Shown here: in pieces, positions 4,541 through 20,231 of the stretch
How positions within the stretch are numbered: position 1 is the stretch's first letter
Layout of the letters: each line of letters starts with the position of its first letter
From: Corallococcus sp. RDP092CA
Lineage (GTDB): Bacteria; Myxococcota; Myxococcia; Myxococcales; Myxococcaceae
Direction of reading: 5' to 3'
DNA length: 64,000 nucleotides
Assembly: GCF_041903675.1 (NCBI RefSeq)
Contig: NZ_JAYESI010000001.1
Coordinates: 160,643-224,642, forward strand
Notes under the pieces: generated by a model
Told to the model about the DNA's origin: nothing
What the model saw: only the letters and a program-made list of their open reading frames with translations
Databases searched by the model: none
Position numbers and translations under genes: made by a program

Positions 4541-5324
4541 GCTGGATGTCCGGACGTACAACCGCGAGGCGTGGAACGGCGAGGTGGGGCGCGGCAACCC
4601 GTGGACGGTGCCGGTGTCCCCGGAGGTCATCGCCGCCGCGCGGCGCGGCGACTGGAGCGTGGTGCTCACCCCGAGGCGGCCCGTGCCGCGCGAGTGGTTC
4701 GGGGACCTGGAGGGCAAGGACGTGCTGGGCCTGGCGAGCGCGGGCGGCCAGCAGTGCCCGGTGCTCGCGGCGGCGGGCGCGCGCGTCACCGTCTTCGACA
4801 ACTCGCCCGCGCAGCTGGCGCAGGACCGGAAGGTGGCCGAGCGCGAGGGACTGGCGCTCCAGGACGTGGAGGGCGACATGCGGGACCTGTCCGCCTTCGC
4901 CGATGGGAGCTTCGACCTCGTCTTCCACCCGTGCTCCAACTGCTTCGCGGAGGAGATCCTGCCGGTGTGGCGCGAGGCCTTCCGCGTGCTGCGCCCGGGC
5001 GGCGCGCTCCTGTCGGGCCTCTGCAACCCGGTGCGCTACCTCTTCGACCCGGTGGAGGAGGAGAAGGGCGTGCTGCGGCTCAAGTACACGATGCCGTACT
5101 CGGACTTCACCAGCCTCACGGACGAGGAGCGCCGCCGCTACACCGACAAGGGCGAGCCCATGGTCGTGGGCCACTCGCTGGAGGATCAGCTGGGCGGACA
5201 GCTGGCGGCGGGCTTCGTGCTCACCCACCTCTTCGAGGACAAGTACGACGCGAAGGACCTGCTCTCCACGTTCCTGCCCACCTTCATCGCCACACGCGCC
5301 GTGAAGCCCTTATCGCGTTCGTGA
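4530..5324 (+). CDS. Class I SAM-dependent methyltransferase
   Basis: MKTELDV start overlaps the SDR stop. Motif I-like VLGLASAGGQ and an acidic loop VTVFDNSP. About 264 aa. Confidence 0.65.
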   Translation: MKTELDVRTYNREAWNGEVGRGNPWTVPVSPEVIAAARRGDWSVVLTPRRPVPREWFGDLEGKDVLGLASAGGQQCPVLAAAGARVTVFDNSPAQLAQDRKVAEREGLALQDVEGDMRDLSAFADGSFDLVFHPCSNCFAEEILPVWREAFRVLRPGGALLSGLCNPVRYLFDPVEEEKGVLRLKYTMPYSDFTSLTDEERRRYTDKGEPMVVGHSLEDQLGGQLAAGFVLTHLFEDKYDAKDLLSTFLPTFIATRAVKPLSRS

Positions 5325-5416
5325 CACAGACTTGCGTTGCGCCTGGCCGTCTCGAAAGCCTACAGATAGAGGTGTCCGGGTCCTCCCGGACTTCCCCCTA
5401 TCCGTAGGAGTCGTTC

Positions 5417-5968
5417 ATGAAGGTGTCGCTGCGTCTTTCCGCCGTGTTGCTGATGGGTGTGTCGTTGCTGGGCCTGGGCTGTGAGGGTGCGGGCGCGAGG
5501 GATCCGCTGAACGCCATCGAGGCGGGCGCGCAGGTGGCGGTGGATCCGTCGCTGGCGGAGGTGAAGCAGGGCGCCGTGGGCGACACGGTGCTGCGCTGCA
5601 CGCAGCCGCAGGACGGCAGCTACCTGGAGGTCGTGCAGACCGCCACGGGCTACGAGGCGGCCACGGTGTCCGAGGCCTACGACCCGTGGGACTGCCGCTG
5701 CACCTACGAGAAGCGCGTGGTGCTGGGGGAGTACACGCGGTGCAACCGCTCCACGGTGGATCCGCGCATCCTGAACTGCTTCCGCATCGAGCCCAGCGGC
5801 ACGACGGGCAAGGTGGTGCTGTCCACCACGCGCGTGCAGCGCACGCAGATGGTCATCGGCGGCACGCAGACGGTGTCGTACACGGACCTGAGCATCGCGG
5901 CCATCAACCAGGACCCGGGCCACACGCCGCGCCAGGACTTCACCTACAGCATGGACGACTGCGAGTAG
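5417..5968 (+). CDS. Hypothetical lipoprotein
   Basis: Signal peptide with LLGLGC lipobox. No recognisable domain. Confidence 0.45.
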   Translation: MKVSLRLSAVLLMGVSLLGLGCEGAGARDPLNAIEAGAQVAVDPSLAEVKQGAVGDTVLRCTQPQDGSYLEVVQTATGYEAATVSEAYDPWDCRCTYEKRVVLGEYTRCNRSTVDPRILNCFRIEPSGTTGKVVLSTTRVQRTQMVIGGTQTVSYTDLSIAAINQDPGHTPRQDFTYSMDDCE

Positions 5969-6096
5969 CCGGCGGTCCTCCGGAGGCGATTTAACCTTCG
6001 GCGGGCTCCGGGGTCTTGAGTGTCAGAGCGCGACGGGAGGCGGGCCTGCACGGCTGCTCCCGGAGCGTTTTGACCTGAACCCGGAGTCCACACACC

Positions 6097-6480
6097 ATGT
6101 CGCTCAAGTCCATGCTTCGCGGTACCGCCGTCGCCTCGCTGCTGTTCGCCGTGCCCGTGTTCGCCCAGGCCGTCGCGCCGTCCGACACCGCCAACAAGGC
6201 GGGCCCGTGCGAGGGTCGCCGGGGCCGCCACGGCGGGGGCCACAAGTTCGGCCACATGGAGCACCGGCTGGACAAGCAGGTCGCCGAAGGGCGCCTGACG
6301 CAGGCCCAGGCCGACAGCTTCAAGGCGGAGGCGAAGCAGCTCCACGAGGAGATGAAGGCCGCGCGCGCCTCCAACAACGGCCAGGTGGACGAGGCCACGC
6401 GCGCGCAGTTCAAGGAGCGCCGCAAGGCCCTGAAGGAGAAGATCAAGGCCGCGCTGGCGCCCACGCAGCAGGGCGCGTGA
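6097..6480 (+). CDS. Small periplasmic protein with LTXXQ motif (Spy/CpxP-like)
   Basis: Signal peptide (AVPVFAQA). LTQAQADSF LTXXQ motif. Charged helical remainder. Confidence 0.45.
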   Translation: MSLKSMLRGTAVASLLFAVPVFAQAVAPSDTANKAGPCEGRRGRHGGGHKFGHMEHRLDKQVAEGRLTQAQADSFKAEAKQLHEEMKAARASNNGQVDEATRAQFKERRKALKEKIKAALAPTQQGA

Positions 6481-6563
6481 GGTCCCCGCCGTGAATGGGG
6501 GACGTGACGCGAGGGCCCCGGCCGGCACAGACTGACCGGGCCCTTTCGTCCACGGGAGTCCCC

Positions 6564-7493
6564 ATGCTTCGCAGCCTCCTCGTCGCCCTCGTCGCCCTGA
6601 CCGCCGGCTGCCGCGCGCACCCTGGCGCGACGCAGGCCCCGGTGGACGCGCAGGCCCCGGCGGAGTCGCCGGTGGCGCTGGTGGCGGACGAGGAGCTCCA
6701 GCGCGTGCAGCGGCGCGCGCGGTACATCGTCGAATCGGAGAAGGGCGCCATCCGCGCCACGGACCTGCTGCTCGCGCGCCCGGACCTGGACCGCACGCGG
6801 ATGCACAGGTTCTTCACCGTGCCGCGCGGCAACGCCTGGTACGCCGTCTTCGGCCGCTTCAACTCCGAGGACGCGTTCGTCCCCGCGTATGCGTACCGCG
6901 CGCCCATCGAGTTCTCCGGCGAGATGGAGGACTTCCCCGTCGAGTCCCTCCCGGAGGGCATGGACGCCCTGGCCCGCGCGGTGAACGCCGCGTGCGAGCG
7001 CGTCTTCCAGGTGCATGGCCGCAGGCAGCTCAACCCCGTCGTGGTGGAGGAGGACGGCGGCATCACCGTCTACGTGCTCCAGGGCTTCGACGACTCGAAC
7101 CTGTACCTGCTGGGCGGGGACTTCCGCTTCAAGTTCAGCAAGGACGGCCGCCAGCAGCTCCAGGAGCTGCCCCTGCACCAGGGGCTCATCCCCGTGTCCG
7201 TCGCGCCGGACGCGGACGGCGAGCGGCCCGCCTTCTCCGCGCACGCGCACGTGCTCTTCCCGGGGCCGCTGGAGACGGAGCTCGCGCTGGTGATGCTCTA
7301 TCCCGCGCTGGGCGGCCTCTTCGTGGGCGTGCCGGACCAGGACTGCGTCTACGCGCTGTCGCCGGACGGCACCATCCGCGCGGTGCGCCTGAGCCGCGAG
7401 GAGGTCCTCCGGGAGCTTCGGCCGGACGGCATCTTCGCGCCGCCCGAGGAGCTGAACAGCGACCCGGAGTCGGGCGCGGACGTGGCGCTCTGA
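6564..7493 (+). CDS. Hypothetical lipoprotein
   Basis: MLRSLLVALVALTAGC lipobox. No recognisable domain. Confidence 0.45.
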   Translation: MLRSLLVALVALTAGCRAHPGATQAPVDAQAPAESPVALVADEELQRVQRRARYIVESEKGAIRATDLLLARPDLDRTRMHRFFTVPRGNAWYAVFGRFNSEDAFVPAYAYRAPIEFSGEMEDFPVESLPEGMDALARAVNAACERVFQVHGRRQLNPVVVEEDGGITVYVLQGFDDSNLYLLGGDFRFKFSKDGRQQLQELPLHQGLIPVSVAPDADGERPAFSAHAHVLFPGPLETELALVMLYPALGGLFVGVPDQDCVYALSPDGTIRAVRLSREEVLRELRPDGIFAPPEELNSDPESGADVAL

Positions 7494-7636
7494 ACAGCTC
7501 CCGCCGCCGCAGTGTTGAGCTTCGTTCAGGCCGTGTGTGGACGCATGACATCGCCCACGGGCAGGAGGCCTAAGTTCGCGACCTCACGGGGGGATGACGC
7601 GATGCGAGTCCCCCGTGCACTGACAGGAGGACGCGG

Positions 7637-8032
7637 ATGGCCCTGCAGAACGACTACCAGGACGTGCTGGACGTGGCGAAGACCGTGGGCGCGAAGATCG
7701 AGACGCGCGAGGAGAACGGAAAGCTCATCATCAAGGGCTCCGTGGACCACGCCTTCGACCGCGACCGCATGTGGGATCAGATCAAGGCGAAGCACCCGAA
7801 GTGGAACGATGAGGTCATGGTCATGCTGACCGTGACCCACGACGAGCCCTACGGCCTCCACACCGTGAAGTCCGGCGACACGCTCAGCAAGCTCGCCAAG
7901 GACATCTACGGGGACATGAAGCTCTACACGAAGATCTTCGAGGCCAACAAGGATCAGCTCAAGGACCCGGACCACATCAAGGTGGGCCAGATCCTCAAGC
8001 TGCCGCCGAAGACGATCGCCAACCGCGCCTGA
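7637..8032 (+). CDS. BON/LysM-domain protein (Kbp/YgaU-like)
   Basis: C-terminal YTVKSGDTLSKLAKDIYGD...YTKIFEANKDQLKDPDHIKVGQILKLP matches the LysM region of E. coli Kbp. Confidence 0.7.
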   Translation: MALQNDYQDVLDVAKTVGAKIETREENGKLIIKGSVDHAFDRDRMWDQIKAKHPKWNDEVMVMLTVTHDEPYGLHTVKSGDTLSKLAKDIYGDMKLYTKIFEANKDQLKDPDHIKVGQILKLPPKTIANRA

Positions 8033-8089
8033 GGCTTCAGCGCTCGAAGTGCCGGTGGACCGCCACCGCGCGGCCCGCCGGCCCCCGGC

Positions 8090-8755
8090 TCAAGGGCAGT
8101 ACGGGCAGTCCACCGACGCCTCGAGCGAGTCGTACACGAGGCAGTTCTGGTCCGCGGCGCTGTCGTTCTTCTGCTGGCAGCGGTGGTTCCACACGGACGC
8201 GCACTGCGTGTAGACCTGCGCGTCGCCGGTGGGCCCCTGGTAGGTGGCCGTGCACGTGCCGCCCGAGCTCCCGCCCGACACGGTGCAGGTGTTGGGGTCC
8301 GTGTTGCTGGTGCAGCGCATGTCGGAGCAGGCGGTGCCGCTGCCCAGCCACTTGCCCGAACAGCTGGAGGCCCCCGCGCGCTGATCACACAGCACGCGGT
8401 TCAGGCTCGAGTCGTAATAGGCGCACGCGCCCTTGCCGCTGCCGCTGGAGCCCCCGGACGGCGTTCCCCAGCTCCAGTCAGGCGACCTCGGCTCGGAGAA
8501 GGAGGTCTGGGAGACCATGTCGTCCGTGAAGCCGATGTCCTCGCACGAGTCACCGTCGAAGTAGCCGCAGTAGTCCCAGCTCTCGCACCAGAAGTCGCGG
8601 CACTCGTCCTCGGTGTCGTCCGAGCAGAAGTACAGCGTCGAGCCATGGACGCAGGCGCCCTGATCGAGGAAGCACCCTGGCAGGACGAGACCCACGGCGA
8701 GGGACAGGAGGACGGCGGACACAACGCCCGCGCGCGGACGAGGGGATGGGGTCAT
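8090..8755 (-). CDS. Cysteine-rich secreted lipoprotein, hypothetical
   Basis: LPGC lipobox. 19 Cys in about 195 mature residues. Gly/Ser-rich. Confidence 0.45.
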   Translation of the reverse strand: MTPSPRPRAGVVSAVLLSLAVGLVLPGCFLDQGACVHGSTLYFCSDDTEDECRDFWCESWDYCGYFDGDSCEDIGFTDDMVSQTSFSEPRSPDWSWGTPSGGSSGSGKGACAYYDSSLNRVLCDQRAGASSCSGKWLGSGTACSDMRCTSNTDPNTCTVSGGSSGGTCTATYQGPTGDAQVYTQCASVWNHRCQQKNDSAADQNCLVYDSLEASVDCPYCP

Positions 8756-8813
8756 CCGCCGGAATGTAGCTTCAAGCGCTCGGGGAATTCAGCTGGGTCA
8801 CCGTGACCATGGG

Positions 8814-10373
8814 CTAGAGCCCGCGCAGGCGAGCAGCCCAGGCGAGGTACGCGCCGCGTGGCTCCTCGAGCGGATCCCGGAAGAGCGAGCGGACGTCGTC
8901 GGTGTCCACCTGACCCGCTTCGAAGGCGCGGTAGAGGCTGTCCCCCAGCAGGTAGCCCAGCGCGTGGCTGACGCCGTGGAACAGGCGGTCGCGGCGCAGG
9001 GGGAGGAGCTTCACGGCCTCGTCGGGGGCCTCGGACTCCGTGGCCTTGTGGGCGAGGACGAAGGCGGCGATCTGCCGCTCCAGGCCCCGGGCCTCGCCGA
9101 AGCGCTTCGCCCACTCCGGGATGCCGGGGCAGGTGCGGCGCGGGTTGATCAGCTTGGAGCCGAAGAAGCCCAGGGCCTCCTCCAGGCAGCGCGCATAGAA
9201 GGCCTCGGACGCGCCGCGCGGGGCGTCCATGGCGTCGCCCACGGCGCAGTGGCGCACGAAGTGGGTGGCCTCCTCGGCGGCGTGGTTGAGGGACAGCGAC
9301 GCGAGGTAGGCCGTGCGCGCGCGGGGGATGTAGCCGCTCTCGCGCGAGAGGATGTGCTTGCGCAGCTGGGACAGCTCCGACTGGGTGAAGCGGCCACGTC
9401 GGCGGATGCGGGCGAGCACGTCGCCGTCCGCCGCCGTCGTCACCTCCACCGAGTCCAGCTCGCGGCCCACGGGCACGCCCGCGAGCCCTCCGATGAGCTC
9501 CGCCATGTCCCGGAAGCGCTCCGCGGCGCTGCGGTCCAGGAGGGGCGCGTCGTCGCCCTCGGCCTCCAGGTAGTCCAGGAAGCTCTGCTGGCAGAGGACG
9601 GGCGAGGCGTTCATCAGGCACAGCGCGCCGTCCGCCAGCTCCACGGCCTCCGCGCTGCCCAGCCGCCCCTCGCGCGCGAGCCGCCACCAGAGGCCCTCCG
9701 CGTTCTGGTACACGACGAGGCCCCGGCGCGGGTGGGCCTCACCCAGGGCGCGCTCCACCTGCGCGGGCAGGTGGCAGGGCGCGGCGTGGAACTGGCCCAC
9801 CAGCACCATCACCAGGGGGACGTCCTCCGCGCGGGCCACGCGGGCGATGCGCTCCGCGGCGAAGGCGTCACGCAGCGCGAGCGAGCGCTCGCCCTGGGCC
9901 CGCCGGTCGATGGCGGCCACCTGGAGCTTGAGGCGCTTCGCGAAGGCCAGCACCGCGCGGATGCCGGCGCCGGGACCGAAGCCCGGGGTGGGGCCGTGGC
10001 CCAGCCGGGCCATCAGGGTGCGCTCGGGCATCCGGCCCGCGAGGTACGCGTCGAGCGCCGCCTGGTGACGGCCCTCCACGCACTCGAGCGCGAGGACGAC
10101 GCGGCGCCCGGAGGCGAGGGCGCGCTCGACGAGCTCCAGGTAGGTCTGCTGGGCCAGTGGCAGCGTGTGGTAGTCGCCGACGTAGACGAGGTCCGACGCC
10201 GCGATGCGCTGGTGCACGTGGTGCAGGGGGACCACGCGCTGATAGGTGCTCGTGCGCCGGCGGTAGCGGGCCTCGTAGGCGCGGAAGGCTTCGGTGCGGC
10301 CCTCGACCACCCGGGCAATCTGGGCGCGTTGACGGCGGAAGAGGGCGAGGTGAAGGGCAAGCGACGCGCGCAT
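8814..10373 (-). CDS. Hypothetical protein with N-terminal ChaN/Tiki-like domain
   Basis: 519 aa. DLVYVGDYHTLPLAQQ and VLALECVEGRHQAALD resemble the ChaN/Tiki (Cofac_haem_bdg) signature. Uncertain. Confidence 0.4.
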   Translation of the reverse strand: MRASLALHLALFRRQRAQIARVVEGRTEAFRAYEARYRRRTSTYQRVVPLHHVHQRIAASDLVYVGDYHTLPLAQQTYLELVERALASGRRVVLALECVEGRHQAALDAYLAGRMPERTLMARLGHGPTPGFGPGAGIRAVLAFAKRLKLQVAAIDRRAQGERSLALRDAFAAERIARVARAEDVPLVMVLVGQFHAAPCHLPAQVERALGEAHPRRGLVVYQNAEGLWWRLAREGRLGSAEAVELADGALCLMNASPVLCQQSFLDYLEAEGDDAPLLDRSAAERFRDMAELIGGLAGVPVGRELDSVEVTTAADGDVLARIRRRGRFTQSELSQLRKHILSRESGYIPRARTAYLASLSLNHAAEEATHFVRHCAVGDAMDAPRGASEAFYARCLEEALGFFGSKLINPRRTCPGIPEWAKRFGEARGLERQIAAFVLAHKATESEAPDEAVKLLPLRRDRLFHGVSHALGYLLGDSLYRAFEAGQVDTDDVRSLFRDPLEEPRGAYLAWAARLRGL

Positions 10374-10485
10374 GGAGCGGCAGGCACCGTCGCATGCGCT
10401 CGCGGGGGCGGCAAAAAATCAGCGGGATGTGACAGGGGTGGTGGCTTGACTCGCACCGCCCTGCAACGGACCATCGTCTCCAATC

Positions 10486-13400
10486 TTGCAGACCGTTCTT
10501 CCTCGCACGCTCATCCTCTGTGTCGCGGTCTTCGCCGCGGCCCCCGTCCACGCGCAGGAGGCCGCGCTGTTGCACGCTGCGCCGCCTCGCGCCGAGGCCC
10601 GGCAGCCCCTCCAGTTGGATGCGACGCTGGTGGATGGCGGCAGGGTGCTGGAGCTCTTCGTCCGCTATCGTGGACCGGGAGAGCCGTACGTCCAGGTCCC
10701 CATGGAGCGGCAGTACGGGGACCTGTACCGCGCGCTGATCCCCGCCGAGCACATGGTGCCCCCCGGCGTGGAGTACTTCGTCGAGGCGGCCATGGTGGAC
10801 GGAGCGCGCACGCCGCTCTTCATGTCCGCGCTCCGGCCCGCGAGGGTGATGGTGGGGACGCAGCCCGCGGAGCCTCCGCCGGGCCGTGCGTCGCCGGGCC
10901 GCAGGGGGGCCCGTGAGCCTCCGAGGTCCGCACCCGAAATCGATGCGTTCGCGCCGCCGTCGGCGGCAGGGGAGGGCAACGACGCGGGAGGCGCATCGGC
11001 TTCGCCCCCGGCCTCAGGCACGGATTCCCGGGCTGCGACCCGGCCGGGAGCCGCTGACTCCCGCGCAGCGAGCACTCCGGATGGCACGGACCCGCGCGCC
11101 TCCACGCATGCGAATGGTCCGGACTCGGCCGAGCCGGGCCGCACGGATGGCACGGGCTCACGCGCCGTGAACCGCGCGGATGCGTCCGACCCGCGCGCCC
11201 CAACCCGCGTGAACGGGACGGACCCGCATGCCTCGAGCCGCACGGATGGCGCGGACCCGCGGGCCCCGCGCCGCGCGGACGCGTCCGACCCGCGCGCCTC
11301 CACCCGCACGGGCGGTCCGGATGCACGGGCGCCCGGCCGTGCGGACACCCAGGGCTCACGGGCTCCGGGCGACTCCGATGACGCCATGGCCGCGCTCAAC
11401 GCGGACCTCCCTCCAGACACCCGCTCCGACTCCCGCGCGTCGCCTTCCTCCCGCTCCACCATGGATGACGACCTGGCGCTCTACAGCGCGGAGGACGTGC
11501 TGGCGGTGACGACCCTCCAGGAGGAGGCCGTGCGCACCGTGCCGGCCATCGGCGCGTCCTTCAACCGCGCGCAGATGATCGCCCTGGGCGCCCGCACCGT
11601 GGCGGACGTGCTGGACGTGGTGCCCGGTGTGTCCGTCAGCCGCGACGTGCAGGGCTTCCACCGCACCGCCATCCGGGGCCTGCGCAACGACGCGGAGGTC
11701 CTCTTCCTCCTCGACGGCCACCGCCTCAACAACTTCTACGACGGCAAGGCGCTGATGAACCTGCCGGTGGAGAACCTGGAGCGCATCGAGGTCATCCGCG
11801 GCCCCGGCTCCGCTGTCTACGGCGCGGGCGCCTTCCAGGGCGTCGTCAACCTCATCACGAACCACGCGGACGGCGTGCGCGGCGCCATCACCACCGGCGG
11901 CGTCCCCCGCGACGATGGCCGCCTCGCGCTCGCCACCGATGGCCACCTGTCCGCCGCGCACACCACCGGCGACCTGCGCCTGTTCGCGGACCTGGACCTG
12001 TGGAGCCAGGAGGGAGGCTCGCTCGTCGTCAGCCACGACGCGCTCGACGACGAGGCCGTGGCCCAGGGGCTGCGCGACGTGGAGCAGCCGGCGGGCAGCA
12101 CCCGCGACGGCCGCTTCCTCCTCAACGCGGGCGGGGGCGTGTCCTACGGCCTGGACAGCGCCGGCCGCGTGGGCGTCACCGCGCGCTACCTCACGGAGAA
12201 GCGGGACGCGCTCGTCGGCCTGTTCGACACCGTGGGCAACGACTCGCGGCTGTCCTGGGACGTGCTCCTCGCGGACCTCACCTGGGAGCGGCCCCTCGCC
12301 GACGGCGGCCAGGTGCGCGCCCGGCTGGGGTTCGATCAGCAGTCCACCGACCGCCTGTTCCAGCTCACCCCCCACGACTTCCGCACCGGCGCCGGCGCGG
12401 AGCGCCTCTTCCCCGACGGCCTCCGCGAGCAGACGCAGGTCACCGTGCGCACCGTGTCGGGCGCCGTGGACGCGGACCTCGCGCTGGCCAAGGAGAACCA
12501 CCTCACGCTGGGCTTCGTCGCCGAGCAGCAGTCCCTGTCCCGCTACGACTACACCACCAACTACACGCTCGACGGCCGCCTGCGCCCCAGCCCCGCCGCC
12601 CCCGAGGGCCTGGTGGACCTCACGCAGGGCGCGGCCGCCCGCCGCCTCAGCCTGGGCCTGTCCGCGCAGGACCAGTGGACCGTGCTCTCCGCGCTCACGC
12701 TCACCTTCGGTCTGCGCCTGGACGCCATCCAGCTACCGGACGCGGACGCGGCTGAGGGCGTGCTCGACACGAGCAAGATGGTGGTGCGCGTCAACCCGCG
12801 CGTGGGCCTGGTCGTCGCCGCGTCGGACGCGCTCGTGCTCAAGGCGCTGTACGGCCGCGCCTTCCGCGCCCCCACGCCCCAGGAACTGGTCGAGCGCATC
12901 CCCGACACCACCTACAACCAGGGCCGCTTCGAGGGAAACCCGCTCCTGCAGCCCACCACCGTGGACACCTTCGAGCTGGGCATGGACCTGGTCCAGGCCG
13001 CGGGCGACACCCGCGTGCGCGTGCGCGCCAACGCCTTCCTCCAGAACTTCGCCTCGCCCATCACCCCGGTGGACACCAGCGGCAACATCGTCCCCCTGCG
13101 CAACCGCGAGCTGGGCGTGCGCGTGTACGGCGTGGAGGCGGAGGCCCGGCTGGAGGCGTCGAAGCGCGCCGCCGCGTGGGTCAACGCCAGCCTGTCGCGC
13201 GCGCAGGACCTGGAGCTGCCGGACCAGTCCCGCCTGCTCACGGACGTGCCCCAGGCGCGCTTCAACGCGGGCGTGTCCATGCCGCTGGGCGACTGGCTGA
13301 ACCTGGACGTGGTGGTGCGCTCCGGCGCCGAGCGCCGCAACAACAACCGCTCCACGCTGGAGCTCATCCGCCGCTACCAGATTCCCGCCTACAGCCTCAT

Positions 13401-13572
13401 CACCGCGCAGCTGCGCACCGAGCCCATCTGGGAGCACTTCGAGGTGACGCTCTTCGCGCAGAACCTCTTCGACCACGACCTGCGCGACGACGTGCCCCGG
13501 CCGGACCGCCTCACCGGCCTGCTGCCGCGCGAGGGCGTGTCCGGCTACCTCACCCTGAGGGCCTTCTACTGA
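10486..13572 (+). CDS. TonB-dependent outer-membrane receptor with long N-terminal extension
   Basis: Signal peptide, then a roughly 140-aa N-terminal domain, an Asp/Pro/Arg-rich repeat linker, a plug domain (TVPAIGASFNRAQ...IEVIRGPGSAVYG) and a beta-barrel ending LTLRAFY. Apparent TTG start. Confidence 0.75.
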   Translation: MQTVLPRTLILCVAVFAAAPVHAQEAALLHAAPPRAEARQPLQLDATLVDGGRVLELFVRYRGPGEPYVQVPMERQYGDLYRALIPAEHMVPPGVEYFVEAAMVDGARTPLFMSALRPARVMVGTQPAEPPPGRASPGRRGAREPPRSAPEIDAFAPPSAAGEGNDAGGASASPPASGTDSRAATRPGAADSRAASTPDGTDPRASTHANGPDSAEPGRTDGTGSRAVNRADASDPRAPTRVNGTDPHASSRTDGADPRAPRRADASDPRASTRTGGPDARAPGRADTQGSRAPGDSDDAMAALNADLPPDTRSDSRASPSSRSTMDDDLALYSAEDVLAVTTLQEEAVRTVPAIGASFNRAQMIALGARTVADVLDVVPGVSVSRDVQGFHRTAIRGLRNDAEVLFLLDGHRLNNFYDGKALMNLPVENLERIEVIRGPGSAVYGAGAFQGVVNLITNHADGVRGAITTGGVPRDDGRLALATDGHLSAAHTTGDLRLFADLDLWSQEGGSLVVSHDALDDEAVAQGLRDVEQPAGSTRDGRFLLNAGGGVSYGLDSAGRVGVTARYLTEKRDALVGLFDTVGNDSRLSWDVLLADLTWERPLADGGQVRARLGFDQQSTDRLFQLTPHDFRTGAGAERLFPDGLREQTQVTVRTVSGAVDADLALAKENHLTLGFVAEQQSLSRYDYTTNYTLDGRLRPSPAAPEGLVDLTQGAAARRLSLGLSAQDQWTVLSALTLTFGLRLDAIQLPDADAAEGVLDTSKMVVRVNPRVGLVVAASDALVLKALYGRAFRAPTPQELVERIPDTTYNQGRFEGNPLLQPTTVDTFELGMDLVQAAGDTRVRVRANAFLQNFASPITPVDTSGNIVPLRNRELGVRVYGVEAEARLEASKRAAAWVNASLSRAQDLELPDQSRLLTDVPQARFNAGVSMPLGDWLNLDVVVRSGAERRNNNRSTLELIRRYQIPAYSLITAQLRTEPIWEHFEVTLFAQNLFDHDLRDDVPRPDRLTGLLPREGVSGYLTLRAFY
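10990..11390 (+). repeat. Degenerate tandem repeats (about 30-33 nt units) encoding (D/S)PRA-rich low-complexity linker inside the TonB receptor gene
   Basis: Repeated gacccgcgcgcc/ggacccgcgggcc-type units. Protein shows roughly 11 iterations of xDPRAxxRxxG. Confidence 0.6.
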
Positions 13573-14402
13573 TGGATCGCCGCCACCTGACCGCCGCGCT
13601 CGCGGCACTCGCGCTGCTGCCCGGGTGCCTCGCCTACAACGACTCCTGCGCCCCCCTGGTGGACGATCCCGACGCCATCGTCGGCTACCTGGGCGAGGAG
13701 GTGCAGCTGGGCTCCGCCTTCACCCGCCACGACAACAACGCGCTGGGGCAGCTGGCCGCGGACGCGTTCCTCCACGCGGAGGACGGCGCCTCGAAGCCCA
13801 CCGACCTGGGCATCATCAACGGCGGCTCGCTGCGCGACGAGGGCCTGTGCGTCACCCGCACGTCCCTGCGCACGGGGCCGCTCACCGACGGCGTCCTGCA
13901 CGAGGTCATCCTCTTCGAGAACCTCGTCGTGACGGTGGACCTCACGGAGAAGCAGCTGGTGGACCTCTTCGAGCACTCCGTGGAGGCGCTGGCCGTGGAA
14001 GGGCAGGCCATCGTGTCGCCGTCCGGCGCGTTCCTCCACGTGTCCGAGGGCACCACCCTGCGCGTGGACTGCTCGCGTCCCGTGGGCCAGCGGGTGACGG
14101 CGCTGCGGGTGCGCGGGCGCGACGTGGCCATCCCCGCGCGCGACGACGCGTCCATCCGCTACCGCGTGGCGATGTCCACGTTCCTGCTGAACGGAGGGGA
14201 CGGCTACGGGAACATCCTGGGCAATGTCGGACAGGACCCGGACCGCAACCCGGTGACGGCGCGCAAGCTGGGCGGCACGGACGCCAACATCGCGGCGGCG
14301 TACATGAAGAGCACGTACCCCAGCCCGGTGCAGGCCCTGAAGGAGGCCCCACGCGTCGTGTTCGAAAGCTGTGCCCGGCCCGCCCGGCCCACCCCGCGCT
14401 GA
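13572..14402 (+). CDS. 5'-nucleotidase C-terminal (substrate-binding) domain lipoprotein
   Basis: ATG overlaps the receptor stop (TGATG). LLPGC lipobox. NALGQLAADAFL, GGSLRD and YRVAMSTFLLNGGDGY match UshA C-terminal-domain motifs. No metallophosphatase domain. Confidence 0.65.
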   Translation: MDRRHLTAALAALALLPGCLAYNDSCAPLVDDPDAIVGYLGEEVQLGSAFTRHDNNALGQLAADAFLHAEDGASKPTDLGIINGGSLRDEGLCVTRTSLRTGPLTDGVLHEVILFENLVVTVDLTEKQLVDLFEHSVEALAVEGQAIVSPSGAFLHVSEGTTLRVDCSRPVGQRVTALRVRGRDVAIPARDDASIRYRVAMSTFLLNGGDGYGNILGNVGQDPDRNPVTARKLGGTDANIAAAYMKSTYPSPVQALKEAPRVVFESCARPARPTPR

Positions 14403-14449
14403 CAGCGCGCGCGGATGCGAGGCTTGCGGGGGCCGGGGCGGACGGTGCC

Positions 14450-14731
14450 CTACTGCTTGGAGGGCTCGTCCGAGGAGGCCGGGGCGCTGGTCGTCACCGC
14501 CGCCGGAGCGGAGGTGGCGGTCTGCGCCGCGGCGGCCACCGGCCGTGGAGGCAGGGGGCCCAGCACGTCATTGACCGAGGGCATCCGACGGATGTCAGCG
14601 CGGGCGACCTTCCACGCCTGCTGGACGATCCACGACAGGGAACGATCCTGTCGGGTCGCCTCGCGCTGGATCTCTTCCAGCATGTCCTCGGGGAAATAGA
14701 GGGATTGCTTGCGGTGATCCGTGGTGGCCAT
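14450..14731 (-). CDS. Ribbon-helix-helix (CopG/Arc-like) DNA-binding protein
   Basis: MATTDHRKQSLYFPEDMLEEIQREATRQDRSLSWIVQQAWKVA is an RHH fold pattern. Disordered C-tail. Confidence 0.55.
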   Translation of the reverse strand: MATTDHRKQSLYFPEDMLEEIQREATRQDRSLSWIVQQAWKVARADIRRMPSVNDVLGPLPPRPVAAAAQTATSAPAAVTTSAPASSDEPSKQ

Positions 14732-14739
14732 TGCCCTGT

Positions 14740-14949
14740 CTACGGCCTTTCTTCGCGCGGGTCATTGCGCTCGTCGCCCGTGACGTCATTGACGGCGGGG
14801 AATGACTTGATGCGGTCGCGGGCGATCTTCCAGGCCTGCTGCACCACCCATGAGAGGGAGCGGTCCTGCCGGTTCGCCTCCTCCTGGATCTCCTTCAGCA
14901 TCTCCTCGGGGAAGTACAGCGACTGCTTGCGCTTGTCGGTGCCTGCCAT
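14740..14949 (-). CDS. Ribbon-helix-helix protein, tandem paralog
   Basis: MAGTDKRKQSLYFPEEMLKEIQEEANRQDRSLSWVVQQAWKIA is about 75% identical to its neighbour. DNA is also clearly duplicated. Confidence 0.55.
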   Translation of the reverse strand: MAGTDKRKQSLYFPEEMLKEIQEEANRQDRSLSWVVQQAWKIARDRIKSFPAVNDVTGDERNDPREERP

Positions 14950-15384
14950 GCCTGGGTCTCCGGGGCGGATTCGAGGTGACGACCTGAACACACCGGAGCG
15001 GTTATCCGACAGACTCCCTGAAGGGTCAACGGTTTCGGAGCACTCAAGCGTGCGCCCGCGCGCTGAACGCTCCGCTTCCGACAATGCGTGGCAAGTGAAA
15101 AAAGAGAAACGCCCCGGCCTCCGCGAGGGAGACCGGGGCGCTTCGGAAAGAGGGACCGCCGGGAGCGAATCTCCAAGCGGCCCCGTGGGCCCAGAGGGGG
15201 AGGGGGGGGACCCCTAGGCCCAACGTCATGAAGTCCAGAACGTCCGACCAACAACCGCGAGGCGCCGTTCTATTTCCGCCCCGCGTCCTTCTGTTGTGGG
15301 AATCATGGAATGTCTTCCCACGCCTTCCGGCCACCGCGACTCTGTAACCCGGCCATCTGACACTCCATTCCGGACCTGGGCGCC

Positions 15385-16752
15385 ATGCCTCGCGCGTCTC
15401 CTGCACGTCCCTCGCTGACCGCCGCGCTCGCCCGCTCCTATGCCGAGCAGGGCGCCCGCTCGCGCTCGGTGCTGCTCGCGGTGTCCGGAGGCGCGGACTC
15501 CACCGCGCTCCTCGTCGGGACGGCGCGCGTGCGCGAGGCGCTGGCGCTGCGCGTGGAGGTGGCCACGGTGGACCACGGCCTCCGGCCTGAGGCCGCGGGG
15601 GAGGTGACCTCCGTCGTGGGGCTGGCCTCGCGCCTGGGCCTGACCTGCCACGTCCGGCGGCTGGCGCTGGGACCCGGGGCGGGCCTGGAGGCGCGGGCGC
15701 GCGAGGCGCGCTACGCGACGCTGGAGGCCCTGCGGAAGGAACTCGGGCTGGACTTCGTGGCCACCGGCCACACGCTCGACGACCAGGCGGAGACGCTGCT
15801 GATGCGCCTGTCCCGGGGGGCGGCGCTCCGGGGCGCGCGGGCCATCCACGCGCGCGCCTCCACGCTCCTCCGCCCGCTGCTCGCGTGCTCGCGCGAGGAC
15901 GTGCTCGCCTTCCTGGCCGCCGAGGAGGTGGGGTTCGTGCGCGATCCGATGAACGCGGACCCCTCCTTCTTCCGCACGCGCGTGCGCCGGGACGTGCTGC
16001 CCGCGCTGAACCGCGCGGCGGGCTTCAGCACCGTGGAGCACCTGGCCACCTTCGCGCGGCTCGCCTCGGAGGACGAAGCCCTGCTCGCCGGGCTGGCGGA
16101 CGCGGCGTGGGAGCGGCTGGCGCTGCCGGGCGGGGGGCTGGAGGCCGTGGGGCTCCGCGCGCTGGAGCCGCCCCTGGCGCGCCGCGTGCTCGCCCGGCTG
16201 CTGGGCGCGGCGGGCGCGCGGGTGGACCACGCCACGCTCGAGCGCGGACGCGAGGTGGTGGCTCGCGGGGGCGCCATGCCGCTCAGCGGCGGCCTCCTCC
16301 TCAAGGCCACCGGCGGCCGGGTGCGCTGCGTGGGGGCGCGGCGGGACGCGGCGCCCGCGCCGCTCGTGCTCGAGGGGCCGGGGGCGCGGGGCGACTTCGG
16401 CGCGTGGCGCTTCCAGGTGGCGGAAGGAACGCCGCCCCCAGGTGTGTTGGCCCTGGGATTGGAAGCGGAGACGGCATGGCCCCTCACGGTGCGTTCGAGG
16501 ACCCAGGGCGACCGCATCCGGACGCGCGCGGGCCACCGCAAGGTGCAGGACGCCCTGGTGGATGCCCGCGTTCCCTCGGAGGCGCGCGACGCTCAACCCG
16601 TGGTGGTGGACGCGCGCGGCGAAGCGCTGTGGCTTCCCGGCGTCCTGCCGCGCTCCAGCGAGCCCCGCGCCGCTTCGCGCGAGGGGTCTTCCCGACAGTC
16701 GCTGTGGGCCCTTCCGCCGCCCACGAGCGAACGAAAGACCCCTCCGTTATAG
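15385..16752 (+). CDS. tilS: tRNA(Ile)-lysidine synthetase
   Basis: SGGADS PP-loop motif. Conserved position ahead of ftsH. Confidence 0.85.
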   Translation: MPRASPARPSLTAALARSYAEQGARSRSVLLAVSGGADSTALLVGTARVREALALRVEVATVDHGLRPEAAGEVTSVVGLASRLGLTCHVRRLALGPGAGLEARAREARYATLEALRKELGLDFVATGHTLDDQAETLLMRLSRGAALRGARAIHARASTLLRPLLACSREDVLAFLAAEEVGFVRDPMNADPSFFRTRVRRDVLPALNRAAGFSTVEHLATFARLASEDEALLAGLADAAWERLALPGGGLEAVGLRALEPPLARRVLARLLGAAGARVDHATLERGREVVARGGAMPLSGGLLLKATGGRVRCVGARRDAAPAPLVLEGPGARGDFGAWRFQVAEGTPPPGVLALGLEAETAWPLTVRSRTQGDRIRTRAGHRKVQDALVDARVPSEARDAQPVVVDARGEALWLPGVLPRSSEPRAASREGSSRQSLWALPPPTSERKTPPL

Positions 16753-16934
16753 AGTCGATGCCTCGAATCGAGGGGATGGTCGCGGTCCCCTAAATAGTTG
16801 AGGGCTTTTTGCTGTTGCTGATACGGTCCGTCGCTGGCCTGCACACGGGCGGGCGCCGGGCACATGACGAACTCCGCCAGGGTTTCTCCTGGCACGGCCC
16901 TCATCCCGCCGAGTACCGAAAGGGCAGCTGAAAC

Positions 16935-18851
<1,917 letters not shown>

Positions 18852-18870
18852 CGCCTCTGGGGGTTCCCTC

Positions 18871-18920
18871 CTGAAGTGACGAAGGCCCTCCCCGCTTCAC
18901 GGGGAGGGCCTTTTCCGTTT
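18871..18920 (+). terminator. Rho-independent terminator (nested hairpin + T-tract) after ftsH
   Basis: gtgacgaa ggccctccccg cttcac ggggagggcc ttttccgttttcgtcac. GC stem followed by a T-run. Confidence 0.5.
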
Positions 18921-19007
18921 TCGTCACGGCCTGCTATCCAGGGGGGATGGGGCCGGTCGACCTGGGGTTCGCCACCGCCTCCATGACTCTCCGCAGGGGA
19001 CCCGAAC

Positions 19008-20231
19008 GTGCTGCGTGCCCGCCTCATCTCGCGAGACCGTCCTGACGACCTGTCACTCGTCCTGCGTCGTCTGAACCTGTCGCCCCGCTTGCGGGAGCAC
19101 CTGACGCGCGAGCTGGGCCACGCGCACGTGCTCATCACCGGGGGCCGCCCCTCCTACGAGGAGGAGCTGGTGCCGCCGCACGGCTCCAGGGAGCGGGAGA
19201 AGCTGCCCACCTGGACGGCGGGCGGCCACCTGGACCATCCCGGCGAGGCGCTCCTGTCCGGCAGCCGCCAGCAGTTCGACCGGCTCATCATGCTCGCCCG
19301 CAAGTCCCCGCGCACGGACGGCCTGGCGCGCGCGCTGGAGGAGGCGCTGGCCCCCCAGGTCGTGCCGGCGCTGGCCCTGAGCGGACGCCGGTTCGAGTGG
19401 GGCTCGCGCACGTACCTCATGGGCGTGGTGAACGTCACGCCGGACAGCTTCTCCGACGGCGGCAGCCTCCCGGACGCGGACAGCGCGGTGGAGCACGCGC
19501 TGCGGCTGGTGGACGCGGGCGCGGACATCGTCGACGTGGGCGGGGAGTCCACCCGGCCGGGCTCGCTGCCGGTGTCCGCGGACGAGGAGCTGTCGCGCGT
19601 CCTCAAGGTGGTGGAGGGCATCAAGCGCCGCTGCACCGTGCCCATCTCCGTGGACACCACGAAGGCGGCGGTGGCCAGGGAGGTGCTCAAGGCGGGCGCC
19701 CACCTCATCAACGACGTCACCGGCTTCCACTCGGACCTGGCGCTGCCCGGCGTGGTGGCCGCCGCGGGCGCCGCGTGTTGCCTGATGCACACCCAGGGGA
19801 TGCCCCGGACGATGCAGGAGTCCCCCCGCTACGAGGACGTGGTGGGCGAGGTGATGGACTACCTGGAGGAGGGGATCTTCCAGGCCACCGAGGCCGGCAT
19901 CCCGCGCGAGCGCATCCTCCTGGATCCGGGCATCGGGTTCGGCAAGACGCTGGAGCACAACCTCTTCCTCCTGCGCCGCCTGGAGGAGCTGCGCGGGCTG
20001 GGGCAGCCCCTGCTGGTGGGCACCAGCCGCAAGTCCTTCCTCGGGACGCTGGCGGGCGGCAAGGGCCCCCAGGAGCGCCTGGCGGCCACCCTGGGCTCCG
20101 TGGCGGCCATGGCCATCATGGGGGGCGCGGACGTGGTCCGCGTGCACGACGTGGGCGAGGTCCGGGACGCGCTGGCCGTGGCGGACGCCATCCGGCGGGC
20201 CCGGGGCGGCGGGGACCTGTACGGCGGATGA
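19008..20231 (+). CDS. folP: Dihydropteroate synthase with about 130-aa N-terminal extension
   Basis: YLMGVVNVTPDSFSDGG and DIVDVGGESTRPG motifs. Start uncertain. Confidence 0.85.
   Translation: MLRARLISRDRPDDLSLVLRRLNLSPRLREHLTRELGHAHVLITGGRPSYEEELVPPHGSREREKLPTWTAGGHLDHPGEALLSGSRQQFDRLIMLARKSPRTDGLARALEEALAPQVVPALALSGRRFEWGSRTYLMGVVNVTPDSFSDGGSLPDADSAVEHALRLVDAGADIVDVGGESTRPGSLPVSADEELSRVLKVVEGIKRRCTVPISVDTTKAAVAREVLKAGAHLINDVTGFHSDLALPGVVAAAGAACCLMHTQGMPRTMQESPRYEDVVGEVMDYLEEGIFQATEAGIPRERILLDPGIGFGKTLEHNLFLLRRLEELRGLGQPLLVGTSRKSFLGTLAGGKGPQERLAATLGSVAAMAIMGGADVVRVHDVGEVRDALAVADAIRRARGGGDLYGG

What the first reader, a model, noticed from the sequence alone, without database searches (positions are those of the whole stretch)
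10486..14402. TonB-dependent receptor with novel N-terminal domain and repeat linker, translationally coupled to a stand-alone 5'-nucleotidase C-domain lipoprotein
The receptor carries about 300 extra N-terminal residues: a folded roughly 115-aa domain plus about 11 degenerate xDPRAxxRxxG repeats, encoded by 30-33-nt DNA repeats, before the plug. Its stop overlaps the start of a lipoprotein comprising only the substrate-binding C-terminal domain of UshA-type 5'-nucleotidases, with no phosphoesterase domain. This suggests a nucleotide-capture lipoprotein paired with a dedicated transporter, for example for NAD or nucleotide scavenging.
Basis: partly seen in the sequence, partly recalled or inferred. 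Interest (0 to 1): 0.6.

Follow-up and report, generated by a model that had tools for sequence, protein, structure and literature searches.

The report
TonB transporter paired with nucleotide-binding lipoprotein
A myxobacterial outer-membrane transporter carries an extra tethered periplasmic domain and is always encoded next to a lipoprotein that keeps the nucleotide-binding pocket of a 5'-nucleotidase but has no catalytic half, which suggests an uncharacterised uptake system for a nucleotide-like nutrient.

Summary
The window comes from a Corallococcus species. Gene 10486-13572 (+) encodes a 1028-aa TonB-dependent transporter (TBDT). Its parts, in order, are a signal peptide, a ~100-aa all-beta domain (NTD), a ~200-aa disordered linker with eleven in-register 33-nt (11-aa) xDPRAxxRxxG units, a TonB box, a plug and a barrel. 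Its TGA overlaps the ATG of a 276-aa lipoprotein (13572-14402) that is only a 5'-nucleotidase C-terminal domain.

All 76 related loci with upstream DNA place the TBDT immediately before the lipoprotein. NTD and plug share one uninterrupted frame in 62 of 65 loci. Linker length varies from 61 to 314 aa, and repeat number differs between Corallococcus strains.

The six CD73 ligand-contact residues (R354, N390, R395, F417, F500, D506) are kept in the lipoprotein, and five of them are invariant in the family.

It is an Ig-like module that also occurs as tandem copies in giant proteins. Its position before the TonB box matches that of the SusC N-terminal extension.

The most likely function is a two-component uptake system for a nucleotide-containing ligand. 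The ligand, the topology and the role of the NTD are all untested. I rate it a new variant of a known kind, of moderate interest.

The parts
8814..10373 (-). Divergently transcribed 519-aa ChaN/Tiki-superfamily protein. It is a co-conserved neighbour whose role in the system is uncertain.
   Evidence: Pfam Cofac_haem_bdg matches aa 55-156 only (6.6e-14). It is present next to the TBDT in nearly every locus with enough flank, at 51-96% identity. It has no obvious signal peptide (read from the sequence) and no PDB relative by sequence.
10374..10485 (.). Intergenic region of 112 nt with conserved blocks: GGCAAAAAA, CTTGAC(T), and GGACCAT about 12 nt before the start codon.
   Evidence: Alignment across 15 genus-level-diverse loci. 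There is no sigma-70 consensus hit, no Rfam hit, and no AT-rich Fur-box-like stretch by inspection.
10486..13572 (+). TonB-dependent transporter gene (1028 aa, TTG start).
   Evidence: The TTG start (GTG in two loci) is conserved at the homologous position in 25+ loci. The C-terminal residue is aromatic (...LRAFY).
10486..10554 (+). Signal peptide (aa 1-23, ...AAAPVHA|QEA).
   Evidence: Read directly from the sequence. The hydrophobic N-terminus is conserved in orthologs.
10555..10854 (+). N-terminal Ig-like beta-sandwich domain (NTD, aa 24-123).
10855..11463 (+). Disordered low-complexity linker (aa 124-326; rich in A, P, D, R, S, G and T).
   Evidence: Hydrophobic residues make up 4.8% of the linker against 32-36% in the folded parts. 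Length is 61-314 aa across loci and composition differs by genus.
11011..11373 (+). Eleven tandem 33-nt units encoding xxxxD(P/S)RAxxR, inside the linker.
   Evidence: Unit number varies among Corallococcus strains (linker 152-294 aa).
11377..11418 (+). Conserved island DDAMAALNADLPPD within the linker.
   Evidence: Kept in Corallococcus, Myxococcus, Archangium and Cystobacter linkers that are otherwise unalignable.
11464..11514 (+). Conserved DDDLALYSAE-DVLAVTT segment. The TonB-box-like motif is DVLAVTT (aa 337-343).
   Evidence: The consensus LEEDLALYSAEDTLA is conserved in all orthologs, immediately before the plug. Its identity as a TonB box is inferred from the resemblance to DTxVVTA.
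11533..11844 (+). Plug domain (aa 350-453).
   Evidence: Pfam PF07715, 9.8e-21. The plug is the only part similar to solved TBDTs (CirA, BtuB, PhuR).
12151..13569 (+). Beta-barrel (Pfam match aa 556-994; the part is drawn to the C-terminus, aa 1028).
   Evidence: Pfam PF00593, 9.1e-36.
13572..14402 (+). 276-aa lipoprotein made only of a 5'-nucleotidase C-terminal (substrate-binding) domain. Its ATG overlaps the TBDT stop by 1 nt.
   Evidence: Lipobox Cys19. Four further cysteines (26, 93, 167, 267) are invariant.
13818..13859 (+). NGGSLR motif (equivalent to CD73 N390...R395) followed by the family-specific insertion DEGLCVTR (E90, G91, C93 and R96 invariant).
   Evidence: The insertion is a gap in all PDB homologs aligned. 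Invariant columns are listed.
14450..14731 (-). TIGR04563-family ribbon-helix-helix protein (93 aa), convergent with the lipoprotein gene.
   Evidence: NCBIfam TIGR04563, 9.2e-36. It stays adjacent to the pair in nearly all loci.
14740..14949 (-). Second TIGR04563-family RHH protein (69 aa as NCBI calls it; the longest ORF runs to 15084).
   Evidence: NCBIfam, 5.5e-36. NCBI gene call of 69 aa. The core is 97-99% identical between Corallococcus and Archangium/Cystobacter.

Best explanation
The TBDT and the lipoprotein form a two-component outer-membrane uptake system specific to the Myxococcaceae/Archangiaceae.

Shown: the two genes are co-translated from overlapping stop/start codons and are never found apart. 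The lipoprotein is a pseudo-enzyme. It has lost the metallophosphoesterase half of UshA/CD73-type 5'-nucleotidases. It keeps the pocket that stacks a nucleobase between two aromatic residues and contacts the ribose and phosphate.

Inferred: the lipoprotein binds a nucleotide-containing molecule (nucleoside phosphate, NAD, a nucleotide-sugar or a similar cofactor) without hydrolysing it, and passes it to the barrel. TonB then pulls on the DVLAVTT box to open the plug. This would parallel SusD/SusC, TbpB/TbpA or BtuG/BtuB.

Inferred: the Ig-like NTD hangs in the periplasm on a disordered spacer that tolerates changes in length and lies N-terminal to the TonB box. That is the same position as the SusC NTE or the FecA signalling domain. 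It most likely docks onto a periplasmic or inner-membrane partner (a particular TonB/Exb complex, peptidoglycan or a sensor). Only the spacer's reach matters, not its sequence.
For: Architecture.

Co-conservation: the TBDT is directly upstream of the lipoprotein in 76/76 loci with flank. The stop/start overlap or a gap of at most 5 nt is seen in all 62 intact loci.

Fusion of the NTD to the plug: same frame, no stops, in 62/65 loci.

Pocket: R52, N83, G84, G85, R88, F115, N117 and GGDG(208-211) are invariant, and F/Y204 is always aromatic. They align residue for residue with CD73 R354, N390, R395, F417, F500 and D506.

Fold: Foldseek probability 1.0 to Thermus, E. coli, CD73, UshA and NadN C-domains.

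No catalytic domain: the protein is 276 aa and Pfam finds only PF02872.

Extracytoplasmic location: lipobox plus four invariant cysteines.

Linker: 4.8% hydrophobic residues, 61-314 aa, composition differs by genus.

Precedent: an Ig-like NTE before the TonB box is essential in SusC Bt1763 (PMC7782687).

Expression: the M. xanthus ortholog (product name identical to, and unique for, MXAN4365) was detected in the outer-membrane proteome (PMC3222651).
Against: No ligand, binding or transport data exist. The barrel resembles characterised TBDTs only in the plug, so substrate class cannot be read from homology. The topology of the lipoprotein (surface or periplasmic face) is unknown. No inner-membrane nucleotide or nucleoside transporter, TonB/ExbBD or nucleotide-metabolism gene lies in the conserved block. 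The conserved neighbours are instead a ChaN-like protein and two RHH proteins. The family-specific insertion (E90-R96) next to the pocket could have changed specificity away from nucleotides. Physical interaction of the two proteins could not be modelled.
Confidence: 0.45

Rival explanations
1. Haem or iron uptake. The TBDT would be a haem/siderophore-type receptor working with the divergently encoded ChaN-like (haem-binding family) protein. The lipoprotein would be an accessory factor whose nucleotidase ancestry is irrelevant.
For: The ChaN-domain gene is co-conserved next to the TBDT in almost all loci. The best NCBIfam partial matches are TonB-hemin (140 bits) and the haemoglobin/transferrin receptor families. 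FRAP and GNPxL motifs are present.
Against: All NCBIfam scores are far below their cut-offs (140 against 316.85). There is no histidine between FRAP and NPxL in the window or in the family consensus. The ChaN-like protein matches only half of the Pfam model, lacks an evident signal peptide and so is probably cytoplasmic. There is no Fur-box-like AT-rich site in the 112-nt promoter region. This reading also leaves unexplained why the nucleoside-pocket residues are the most conserved columns of the lipoprotein.
Confidence: 0.15
2. Cobalamin (for example adenosylcobalamin) uptake. The lipoprotein pocket would hold the 5'-deoxyadenosyl or nucleotide-loop part of B12, in analogy with BtuG/BtuB. M. 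xanthus depends on exogenous B12 (my own knowledge, not tested here).
For: The plug resembles BtuB (3e-11). TIGR01779 gives a partial hit. One automatic annotation of the M. xanthus ortholog reads 'Vitamin B12 transporter BtuB'. This is a special case of the nucleotide-containing-ligand idea.
Against: There is no cobalamin riboswitch, or any other Rfam element, upstream. TIGR01779 scores 84 bits against a cut-off of 599.7. The barrel is about 100 aa larger than BtuB and is unrelated to it outside the plug.
Confidence: 0.1
3. Not a nutrient importer. The TBDT-like barrel would act in export or as an envelope-spanning structural or signalling device, as Oar does for PopC secretion in M. xanthus (my own knowledge). 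The NTD and spacer would reach the inner membrane, and the lipoprotein would be a pseudo-enzyme scaffold.
For: The long spacer can span the periplasm. In distant relatives it is EP/KP-rich, like the spacer of TonB itself. The NTD module is otherwise used in giant surface proteins. Two very highly conserved RHH regulators are glued to the pair.
Against: The TonB box, plug and barrel are all intact and conserved. Strict conservation of a small-molecule pocket in the lipoprotein argues for ligand binding. There is no ECF sigma or anti-sigma gene, and no secretion substrate, in the block.
Confidence: 0.15
4. Split enzyme. The lipoprotein would be the C-terminal half of a 5'-nucleotidase that pairs in trans with a metallophosphoesterase encoded elsewhere, degrading nucleotides at the cell surface so that the products enter through the TBDT.
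For: All substrate-binding residues are retained. Other 5'-nucleotidase-family lipoproteins exist in the M. xanthus outer-membrane proteome (MXAN2470 and MXAN5361).
Against: There is no Metallophos gene in the conserved five-gene block. In UshA and CD73 catalysis needs a covalently hinged domain rotation (established structural knowledge of the family). The family-specific disulfide-containing insertion occupies the side that would face the catalytic domain (inference).
Confidence: 0.05

Closest known systems
SusC/SusD-type transporter-lipoprotein pairs of Bacteroidota (e.g. Bt1763/Bt1762)
   Same: The gene order is TBDT then partner lipoprotein. The TBDT carries an Ig-like N-terminal extension located before the TonB box (PMC7782687).
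   Different: The lipoprotein is a 5'-nucleotidase C-domain, not a TPR SusD fold. The NTD is not the CarboxypepD_reg domain (no Pfam hit). It is separated from the TonB box by a 61-314-aa disordered spacer instead of a few residues. The lineage is a different phylum (Myxococcota).
TonB-dependent transducers (FecA, FpvA, FoxA) with the STN signalling domain
   Same: An extra periplasmic domain lies N-terminal to the TonB box.
   Different: There is no STN domain, and no ECF sigma or FecR-type anti-sigma gene nearby. The fold here is all-beta Ig-like, whereas STN is alpha/beta.
UshA / CD73 / NadN 5'-nucleotidases
   Same: The C-terminal domain fold and its nucleoside/phosphate-contact residues are shared.
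   Different: The entire N-terminal dimetal phosphoesterase domain is absent, so hydrolysis by the known mechanism is impossible. The protein is lipid-anchored, has four conserved cysteines and a family-specific insertion after the NGGxxR motif.
TbpB/TbpA, HpuA/HpuB and BtuG/BtuB ligand-capturing lipoprotein plus TBDT systems
   Same: The logic of a dedicated lipoprotein encoded with its TBDT.
   Different: The lipoprotein folds and ligands are unrelated. Surface exposure has not been shown here.
ChaN/ChaR of Campylobacter jejuni
   Same: A ChaN-family gene lies adjacent to a TBDT gene.
   Different: The myxobacterial protein is 519 aa, matches only aa 3-104 of the 213-position Pfam model, and has no lipobox or signal peptide.

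Membership tests
TonB-dependent transporter (TBDT) | N-terminal plug domain inside a C-terminal 22-strand barrel | tested here: met
   Pfam Plug 9.8e-21 and TonB_dep_Rec_b-barrel 9.1e-36, both above the gathering scores.
TonB-dependent transporter (TBDT) | TonB box preceding the plug | tested here: inconclusive
   A conserved ...LALYSAE-D(V/T)LA(V/L)(T/A)T motif lies directly before the plug in all orthologs. It resembles DTxVVTA, but binding to TonB was not tested.
TonB-dependent transporter (TBDT) | Signal peptide and a C-terminal aromatic residue for outer-membrane insertion | tested here: met
   The N-terminus is MQTVLPRTLILCVAVFAAAPVHA|Q and the C-terminus is ...LRAFY. The M. xanthus ortholog was found in outer-membrane fractions.
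TonB-dependent transducer (FecA type) | STN signalling domain (PF07660) at the N-terminus | tested here: not met
   No Pfam hit in aa 1-345 at E<=10. The model is all-beta Ig-like.
TonB-dependent transducer (FecA type) | Adjacent ECF sigma and anti-sigma genes | tested here: not met
   The neighbours are the ChaN-like gene, two RHH genes, TilS and FtsH.
SusC-like TBDT | CarboxypepD_reg-type NTE (PF13715) and a SusD-family partner | tested here: not met
   There is no such Pfam hit, and the partner is PF02872. Only the position and the Ig-like nature of the NTE are analogous.
UshA/CD73-type 5'-nucleotidase (enzyme) | N-terminal calcineurin-like metallophosphoesterase domain with the dimetal site | tested here: not met
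   The protein is 276 aa. Only about 30 residues separate the lipid cysteine from the C-domain, and there is no Metallophos hit.
UshA/CD73-type 5'-nucleotidase (enzyme) | C-terminal substrate-binding domain with two stacking aromatics and the Arg/Asn/Asp contacts | tested here: met
   PF02872 2.4e-19. Profile to PDB 5.8e-23. Foldseek probability 1.0. R52, N83, R88, F115, F/Y204 and D210 align to CD73 R354, N390, R395, F417, F500 and D506.
Bacterial lipoprotein | Lipobox with an invariant Cys after a signal peptide | tested here: met
   The sequence is ...ALALLPG-C19. Cys19 is conserved in all aligned full-length family members (invariant, >=90%). Acylation and sorting were not tested.
HemR/ShuA-type haem receptor | Conserved His between the FRAP and NPNL boxes, and a score above the TIGR01785 cut-off | tested here: not met
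   The stretch FRAPTPQELVERIPDTTYNQGRFEGNPLL contains no His. TIGR01785 scores 140 bits against a cut-off of 316.85.
BtuB cobalamin transporter | Equivalog-level match and an upstream cobalamin riboswitch | tested here: not met
   TIGR01779 scores 83.7 against 599.7. There is no Rfam hit in 5000-20000 at E<=1 other than chance-level sRNA matches.

The most novel reading that the evidence does not exclude
This would be the first TonB-dependent import system dedicated to intact nucleotides or dinucleotide cofactors (for example NAD, ATP or nucleotide-sugars released from lysed prey). A catalytically dead 5'-nucleotidase half would have been recruited as the ligand-capturing lipoprotein. A new class of tethered Ig-like N-terminal extension would couple the transporter to a periplasmic or inner-membrane partner.
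Probability: 0.3. Interest if true: 0.7.

Novelty: new variant of a known kind. Interest (0 to 1): 0.45.

Why it matters
TonB-dependent transporters are known for iron chelates, haem, B12, metals and glycans. To my knowledge none has been assigned to nucleotides, and none has a 5'-nucleotidase-derived partner; two full-text searches found nothing of the kind. If the inference holds, three things follow. It would add a substrate class and a partner fold to the TBDT repertoire. It would give a clean example of an enzyme half turned into a binding protein. It would also bear on how predatory myxobacteria harvest high-value metabolites from prey. Separately, the NTD and its variable spacer offer a second, independent case for studying what N-terminal extensions placed before the TonB box do. 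That question is still open for SusC (PMC7782687).

Tried and rejected
(1) A word-indexed homology search with the NTD alone found only 5 truncated proteins. This reflects the limits of the index, not rarity, because the exhaustive profile search found 1093.

It was redone with permitted full-length orthologs.

(3) The afdb50 fold library was unavailable. The spread of stand-alone 5'-nucleotidase C-domain proteins in other phyla was therefore not surveyed.

(4) The Rfam scan of 5000-20000 gave only chance-level hits, so there is no riboswitch.

(5) The sigma-70 and terminator scans gave nothing useful for the operon.

(6) The ChaN-like protein has no PDB relative by sequence. Its role is left open.

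(7) The gene inserted between the RHH pair and TilS in distant MAGs is an unrelated 695-aa Ig-repeat lipoprotein. I rejected it as a system component.

(8) Mapping of the M. xanthus lipoprotein to a locus tag failed. The TBDT maps to MXAN4365 only by its unique product name. Searches for MXAN_4364/4366 and MXAN_2469-2471 found no further papers.

(9) I rejected the idea that the NTD is a novel fold.

Full report
**What is there.** The window has 70-75% GC. Its proteins are 91-94% identical to those of Corallococcus exiguus and C. exercitus. ORF 10486-13572 (+) encodes a 1028-aa protein. Pfam finds a Plug at aa 350-453 and a TonB-dependent receptor barrel at aa 556-994. Pfam finds nothing in aa 1-345, even at E<=10. 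An identical 1028-aa protein is already deposited in NCBI (P0126). NCBI also calls the full-length form (1041 aa) in C. exiguus.

The stop codon TGA (13570-13572) overlaps by one base the ATG (13572-13574) of a 276-aa ORF that ends at 14402. That protein has a signal peptide ending in the lipobox LLPG-C19. Its only Pfam match is 5_nucleotid_C (2.4e-19), with no metallophosphoesterase domain.

**Anatomy of the N-terminal extension.** After a 23-aa signal peptide, aa 24-123 form a confidently predicted nine-strand beta-sandwich (AlphaFold2 with 44 sequences, mean pLDDT 93.6). Residues 124-326 are a low-complexity stretch with 4.8% hydrophobic residues, against 32-36% in the folded parts. Inside it, eleven units of exactly 33 nt (11 aa, consensus xxxxD(P/S)RAxxR) sit in register from 11011 to 11373.
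- TRF finds periods of 33 and 66 nt.
- The protein autocorrelation peaks at lags 11, 22 and 33.

Two short islands are conserved in linkers that are otherwise unalignable. One is DDAMAALNADLPPD (11377-11418). The other is DDDLALYSAE-DVLAVTT (11464-11514). By position and by its similarity to DTxVVTA, I read the second as the TonB box. The architecture is therefore signal peptide, Ig-like NTD, disordered spacer, TonB box, plug, barrel.

**Is the fusion real?** In a 72% GC genome, long stop-free frames arise by chance, so I tested the fusion across relatives.
- In 62 of 65 loci that cover the region, the NTD and the plug lie in the same frame with no stop between them.
- The three exceptions (L033, L040, L044) have a frame shift or stop between the NTD and the plug, which I read as probable assembly errors.
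- The start codon is TTG at the homologous position in Corallococcus, Myxococcus, Hyalangium and others, and GTG in two loci.
- GC3 of the linker is 0.82 in this frame.

**Co-conservation.** A scan of one genome per species returned 107 relatives of the lipoprotein, of which 80 loci were kept. All are from Myxococcaceae, Archangiaceae or related Myxococcota MAGs, with identity down to 43%.
- Every one of the 76 loci with upstream DNA has the TBDT ending at the lipoprotein start. The four loci without it begin within 85 nt of the lipoprotein gene.
- The TGATG overlap is kept in 51 loci. In 11 more the ATG lies 1-5 nt after the stop.
- The wider conserved block is ChaN-like(-) | TBDT(+) lipoprotein(+) | RHH(-) RHH(-).
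- TilS and FtsH follow directly in most genera but lie about 2.7 kb further away in distant MAGs. The five-gene block stays intact there.

**Linker variability.** The spacer ranges from 61 to 314 aa across loci. The DPRA repeat is specific to Corallococcus. Myxococcus linkers are rich in Pro, Ala, Thr and Arg. Distant MAGs have EP/KP-type spacers that resemble the spacer of TonB itself. Among Corallococcus strains the linker runs from 152 to 294 aa, with differing numbers of 11-aa units. Only length and disorder appear to be under selection, not sequence.

- The best hits are 2000-4000-aa proteins with up to 20 tandem copies.
- Those proteins also carry beta-helix and PKD domains.
- Their copies brush the Pfam models Big_7 and GlgE_dom_N_S.

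About twenty further cluster representatives are TBDT-sized proteins with a single copy at the N-terminus. One protein (P0300) joins the same NTD and a charged linker to a non-TBDT C-terminus. The domain is therefore not a new fold or an orphan. What is unusual is its use as a tethered N-terminal extension of a TBDT. The nearest precedent is the Ig-like NTE of SusC proteins. That NTE also precedes the TonB box, is required for function, and has no known role (PMC7782687).

**What the lipoprotein is.** AlphaFold2 gives mean pLDDT 89.7. Foldseek matches the C-terminal domains of Thermus 5'-nucleotidase, E. coli c4898, UshA, human CD73 and NadN with probability 1.0. The TM-score is about 0.6 on the query and about 0.33 on the two-domain targets. 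A family profile hits the same structures at 6e-23 to 1e-11.

I counted along the printed CD73 alignment using the +26 signal-peptide offset. This reproduces the known ligand contacts (my own knowledge of Knapp et al. 2012):
- R354 corresponds to R52.
- N390-G-G-x-x-R395 corresponds to N83-G84-G85-x-x-R88.
- F417 corresponds to F115.
- F500 corresponds to F204.
- D506 corresponds to D210.

All of these are invariant in 32 family members except position 204, which is always Phe or Tyr. They are among the most conserved columns of a family whose mean column identity is 61%.

A family-specific insertion (D89-EGLCVTR-96, with E90, G91, C93 and R96 invariant) follows the NGGxxR motif and is absent from every solved homolog. 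Four non-lipid cysteines are invariant, which fits an oxidising extracytoplasmic location. The protein thus keeps a nucleoside/nucleotide pocket but cannot hydrolyse by the family mechanism.

**What cannot be read from homology.** Outside the plug, the TBDT has no detectable similarity to any solved transporter. All NCBIfam matches are far below their cut-offs.
- Against a haem receptor: there is no His between FRAP and NPxL. The ChaN-like neighbour matches only half of its Pfam model and has no signal peptide.
- Against a BtuB role: there is no cobalamin riboswitch.
- Against a FecA-type transducer: there is no STN domain and no sigma/anti-sigma pair.

**Mechanism proposed.**
- Shown: a TBDT and a pocket-retaining pseudo-nucleotidase lipoprotein are encoded with overlapping stop/start codons and are strictly co-inherited. 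The TBDT carries a periplasmic Ig-like domain on a disordered tether of variable length, ahead of its TonB box.
- Inferred: the lipoprotein captures a nucleotide-containing ligand and delivers it to the barrel, and TonB energises passage. The NTD docks to a periplasmic or inner-membrane partner, with the spacer providing reach.

I put 0.45 on this. The rivals are haem/iron with ChaN (0.15), a B12 special case (0.10), a non-import role (0.15) and a split enzyme (0.05).

**Known or new.** The genes are annotated generically in public genomes. The M. xanthus TBDT ortholog carries the product name that is unique to MXAN4365, and that protein was detected in the outer-membrane proteome (PMC3222651). 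I found no functional study and no report of a TBDT paired with a 5'-nucleotidase-derived lipoprotein. I classify it as a new variant of a known kind (a TBDT with a dedicated lipoprotein and an N-terminal extension), restricted to one myxobacterial lineage. Interest is moderate at 0.45. The anatomy is solid and clearly testable, but the function is still inferred.

Noticed in passing
window 14450-14731 (-) and 14740-14949 (-; longest ORF to 15084): Two paralogous TIGR04563-family ribbon-helix-helix proteins lie convergent with the lipoprotein gene. The core of the second is 97-99% identical between Corallococcus and Archangium/Cystobacter, which is more conserved than FtsH (about 90%). The pair stays attached to the TBDT-lipoprotein genes even where TilS and FtsH have moved away. 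Their function is unknown; they may be regulators.
   Followed up: partly
window 10374-10488: The TBDT start codon is TTG (GTG in two loci) across genera. Upstream, CTTGAC(T), then about 17 nt, then GGACCAT about 12 nt before the start, and a GGCAAAAAA tract are all conserved. This could be a promoter giving a nearly leaderless mRNA, or an operator.
   Followed up: partly
window 15106-15144 (-): A strong 17-bp GC-rich hairpin followed by a T-run lies on the minus strand, between the TilS start and the RHH genes. It is upstream of the second RHH gene, so it may be a 5'-UTR structure or a terminator of unknown origin.
   Followed up: no
window 8814-10373 (-): A 519-aa ChaN/Tiki-superfamily protein has no signal peptide, and only aa 55-156 match Pfam Cofac_haem_bdg. 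It is more conserved across genera (75-80%) than the TBDT or the lipoprotein (63-73%). Its C-terminal 360 aa have no family assignment.
   Followed up: partly
P0274-P0299, e.g. P0274 aa 2000-4000: Giant proteins of 2000-4000 aa carry up to 20 tandem copies of the same Ig-like module as the NTD, together with beta-helix, PKD and P-domain regions. The module itself seems to lack a dedicated Pfam model and gives only weak Big_7 and GlgE_dom_N_S matches.
   Followed up: partly
P0300 (478 aa): This protein has the same NTD and a Lys/Glu/Pro-rich linker but a non-TBDT cysteine-containing C-terminal domain. The NTD-plus-spacer cassette is therefore reused in another context.
   Followed up: no
L047 7402-9489 (+), and equivalent positions in L048, L052, L056: In distant MAGs a 695-aa Ig-repeat lipoprotein gene is inserted between the RHH pair and TilS.
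   Followed up: no
window 7637-8032 (+) and 8090-8755 (-): A small LysM protein (131 aa) and a 221-aa Cys-rich secreted or lipoprotein-like protein with no family lie upstream of the ChaN-like gene. Both are conserved only within Corallococcus.
   Followed up: no
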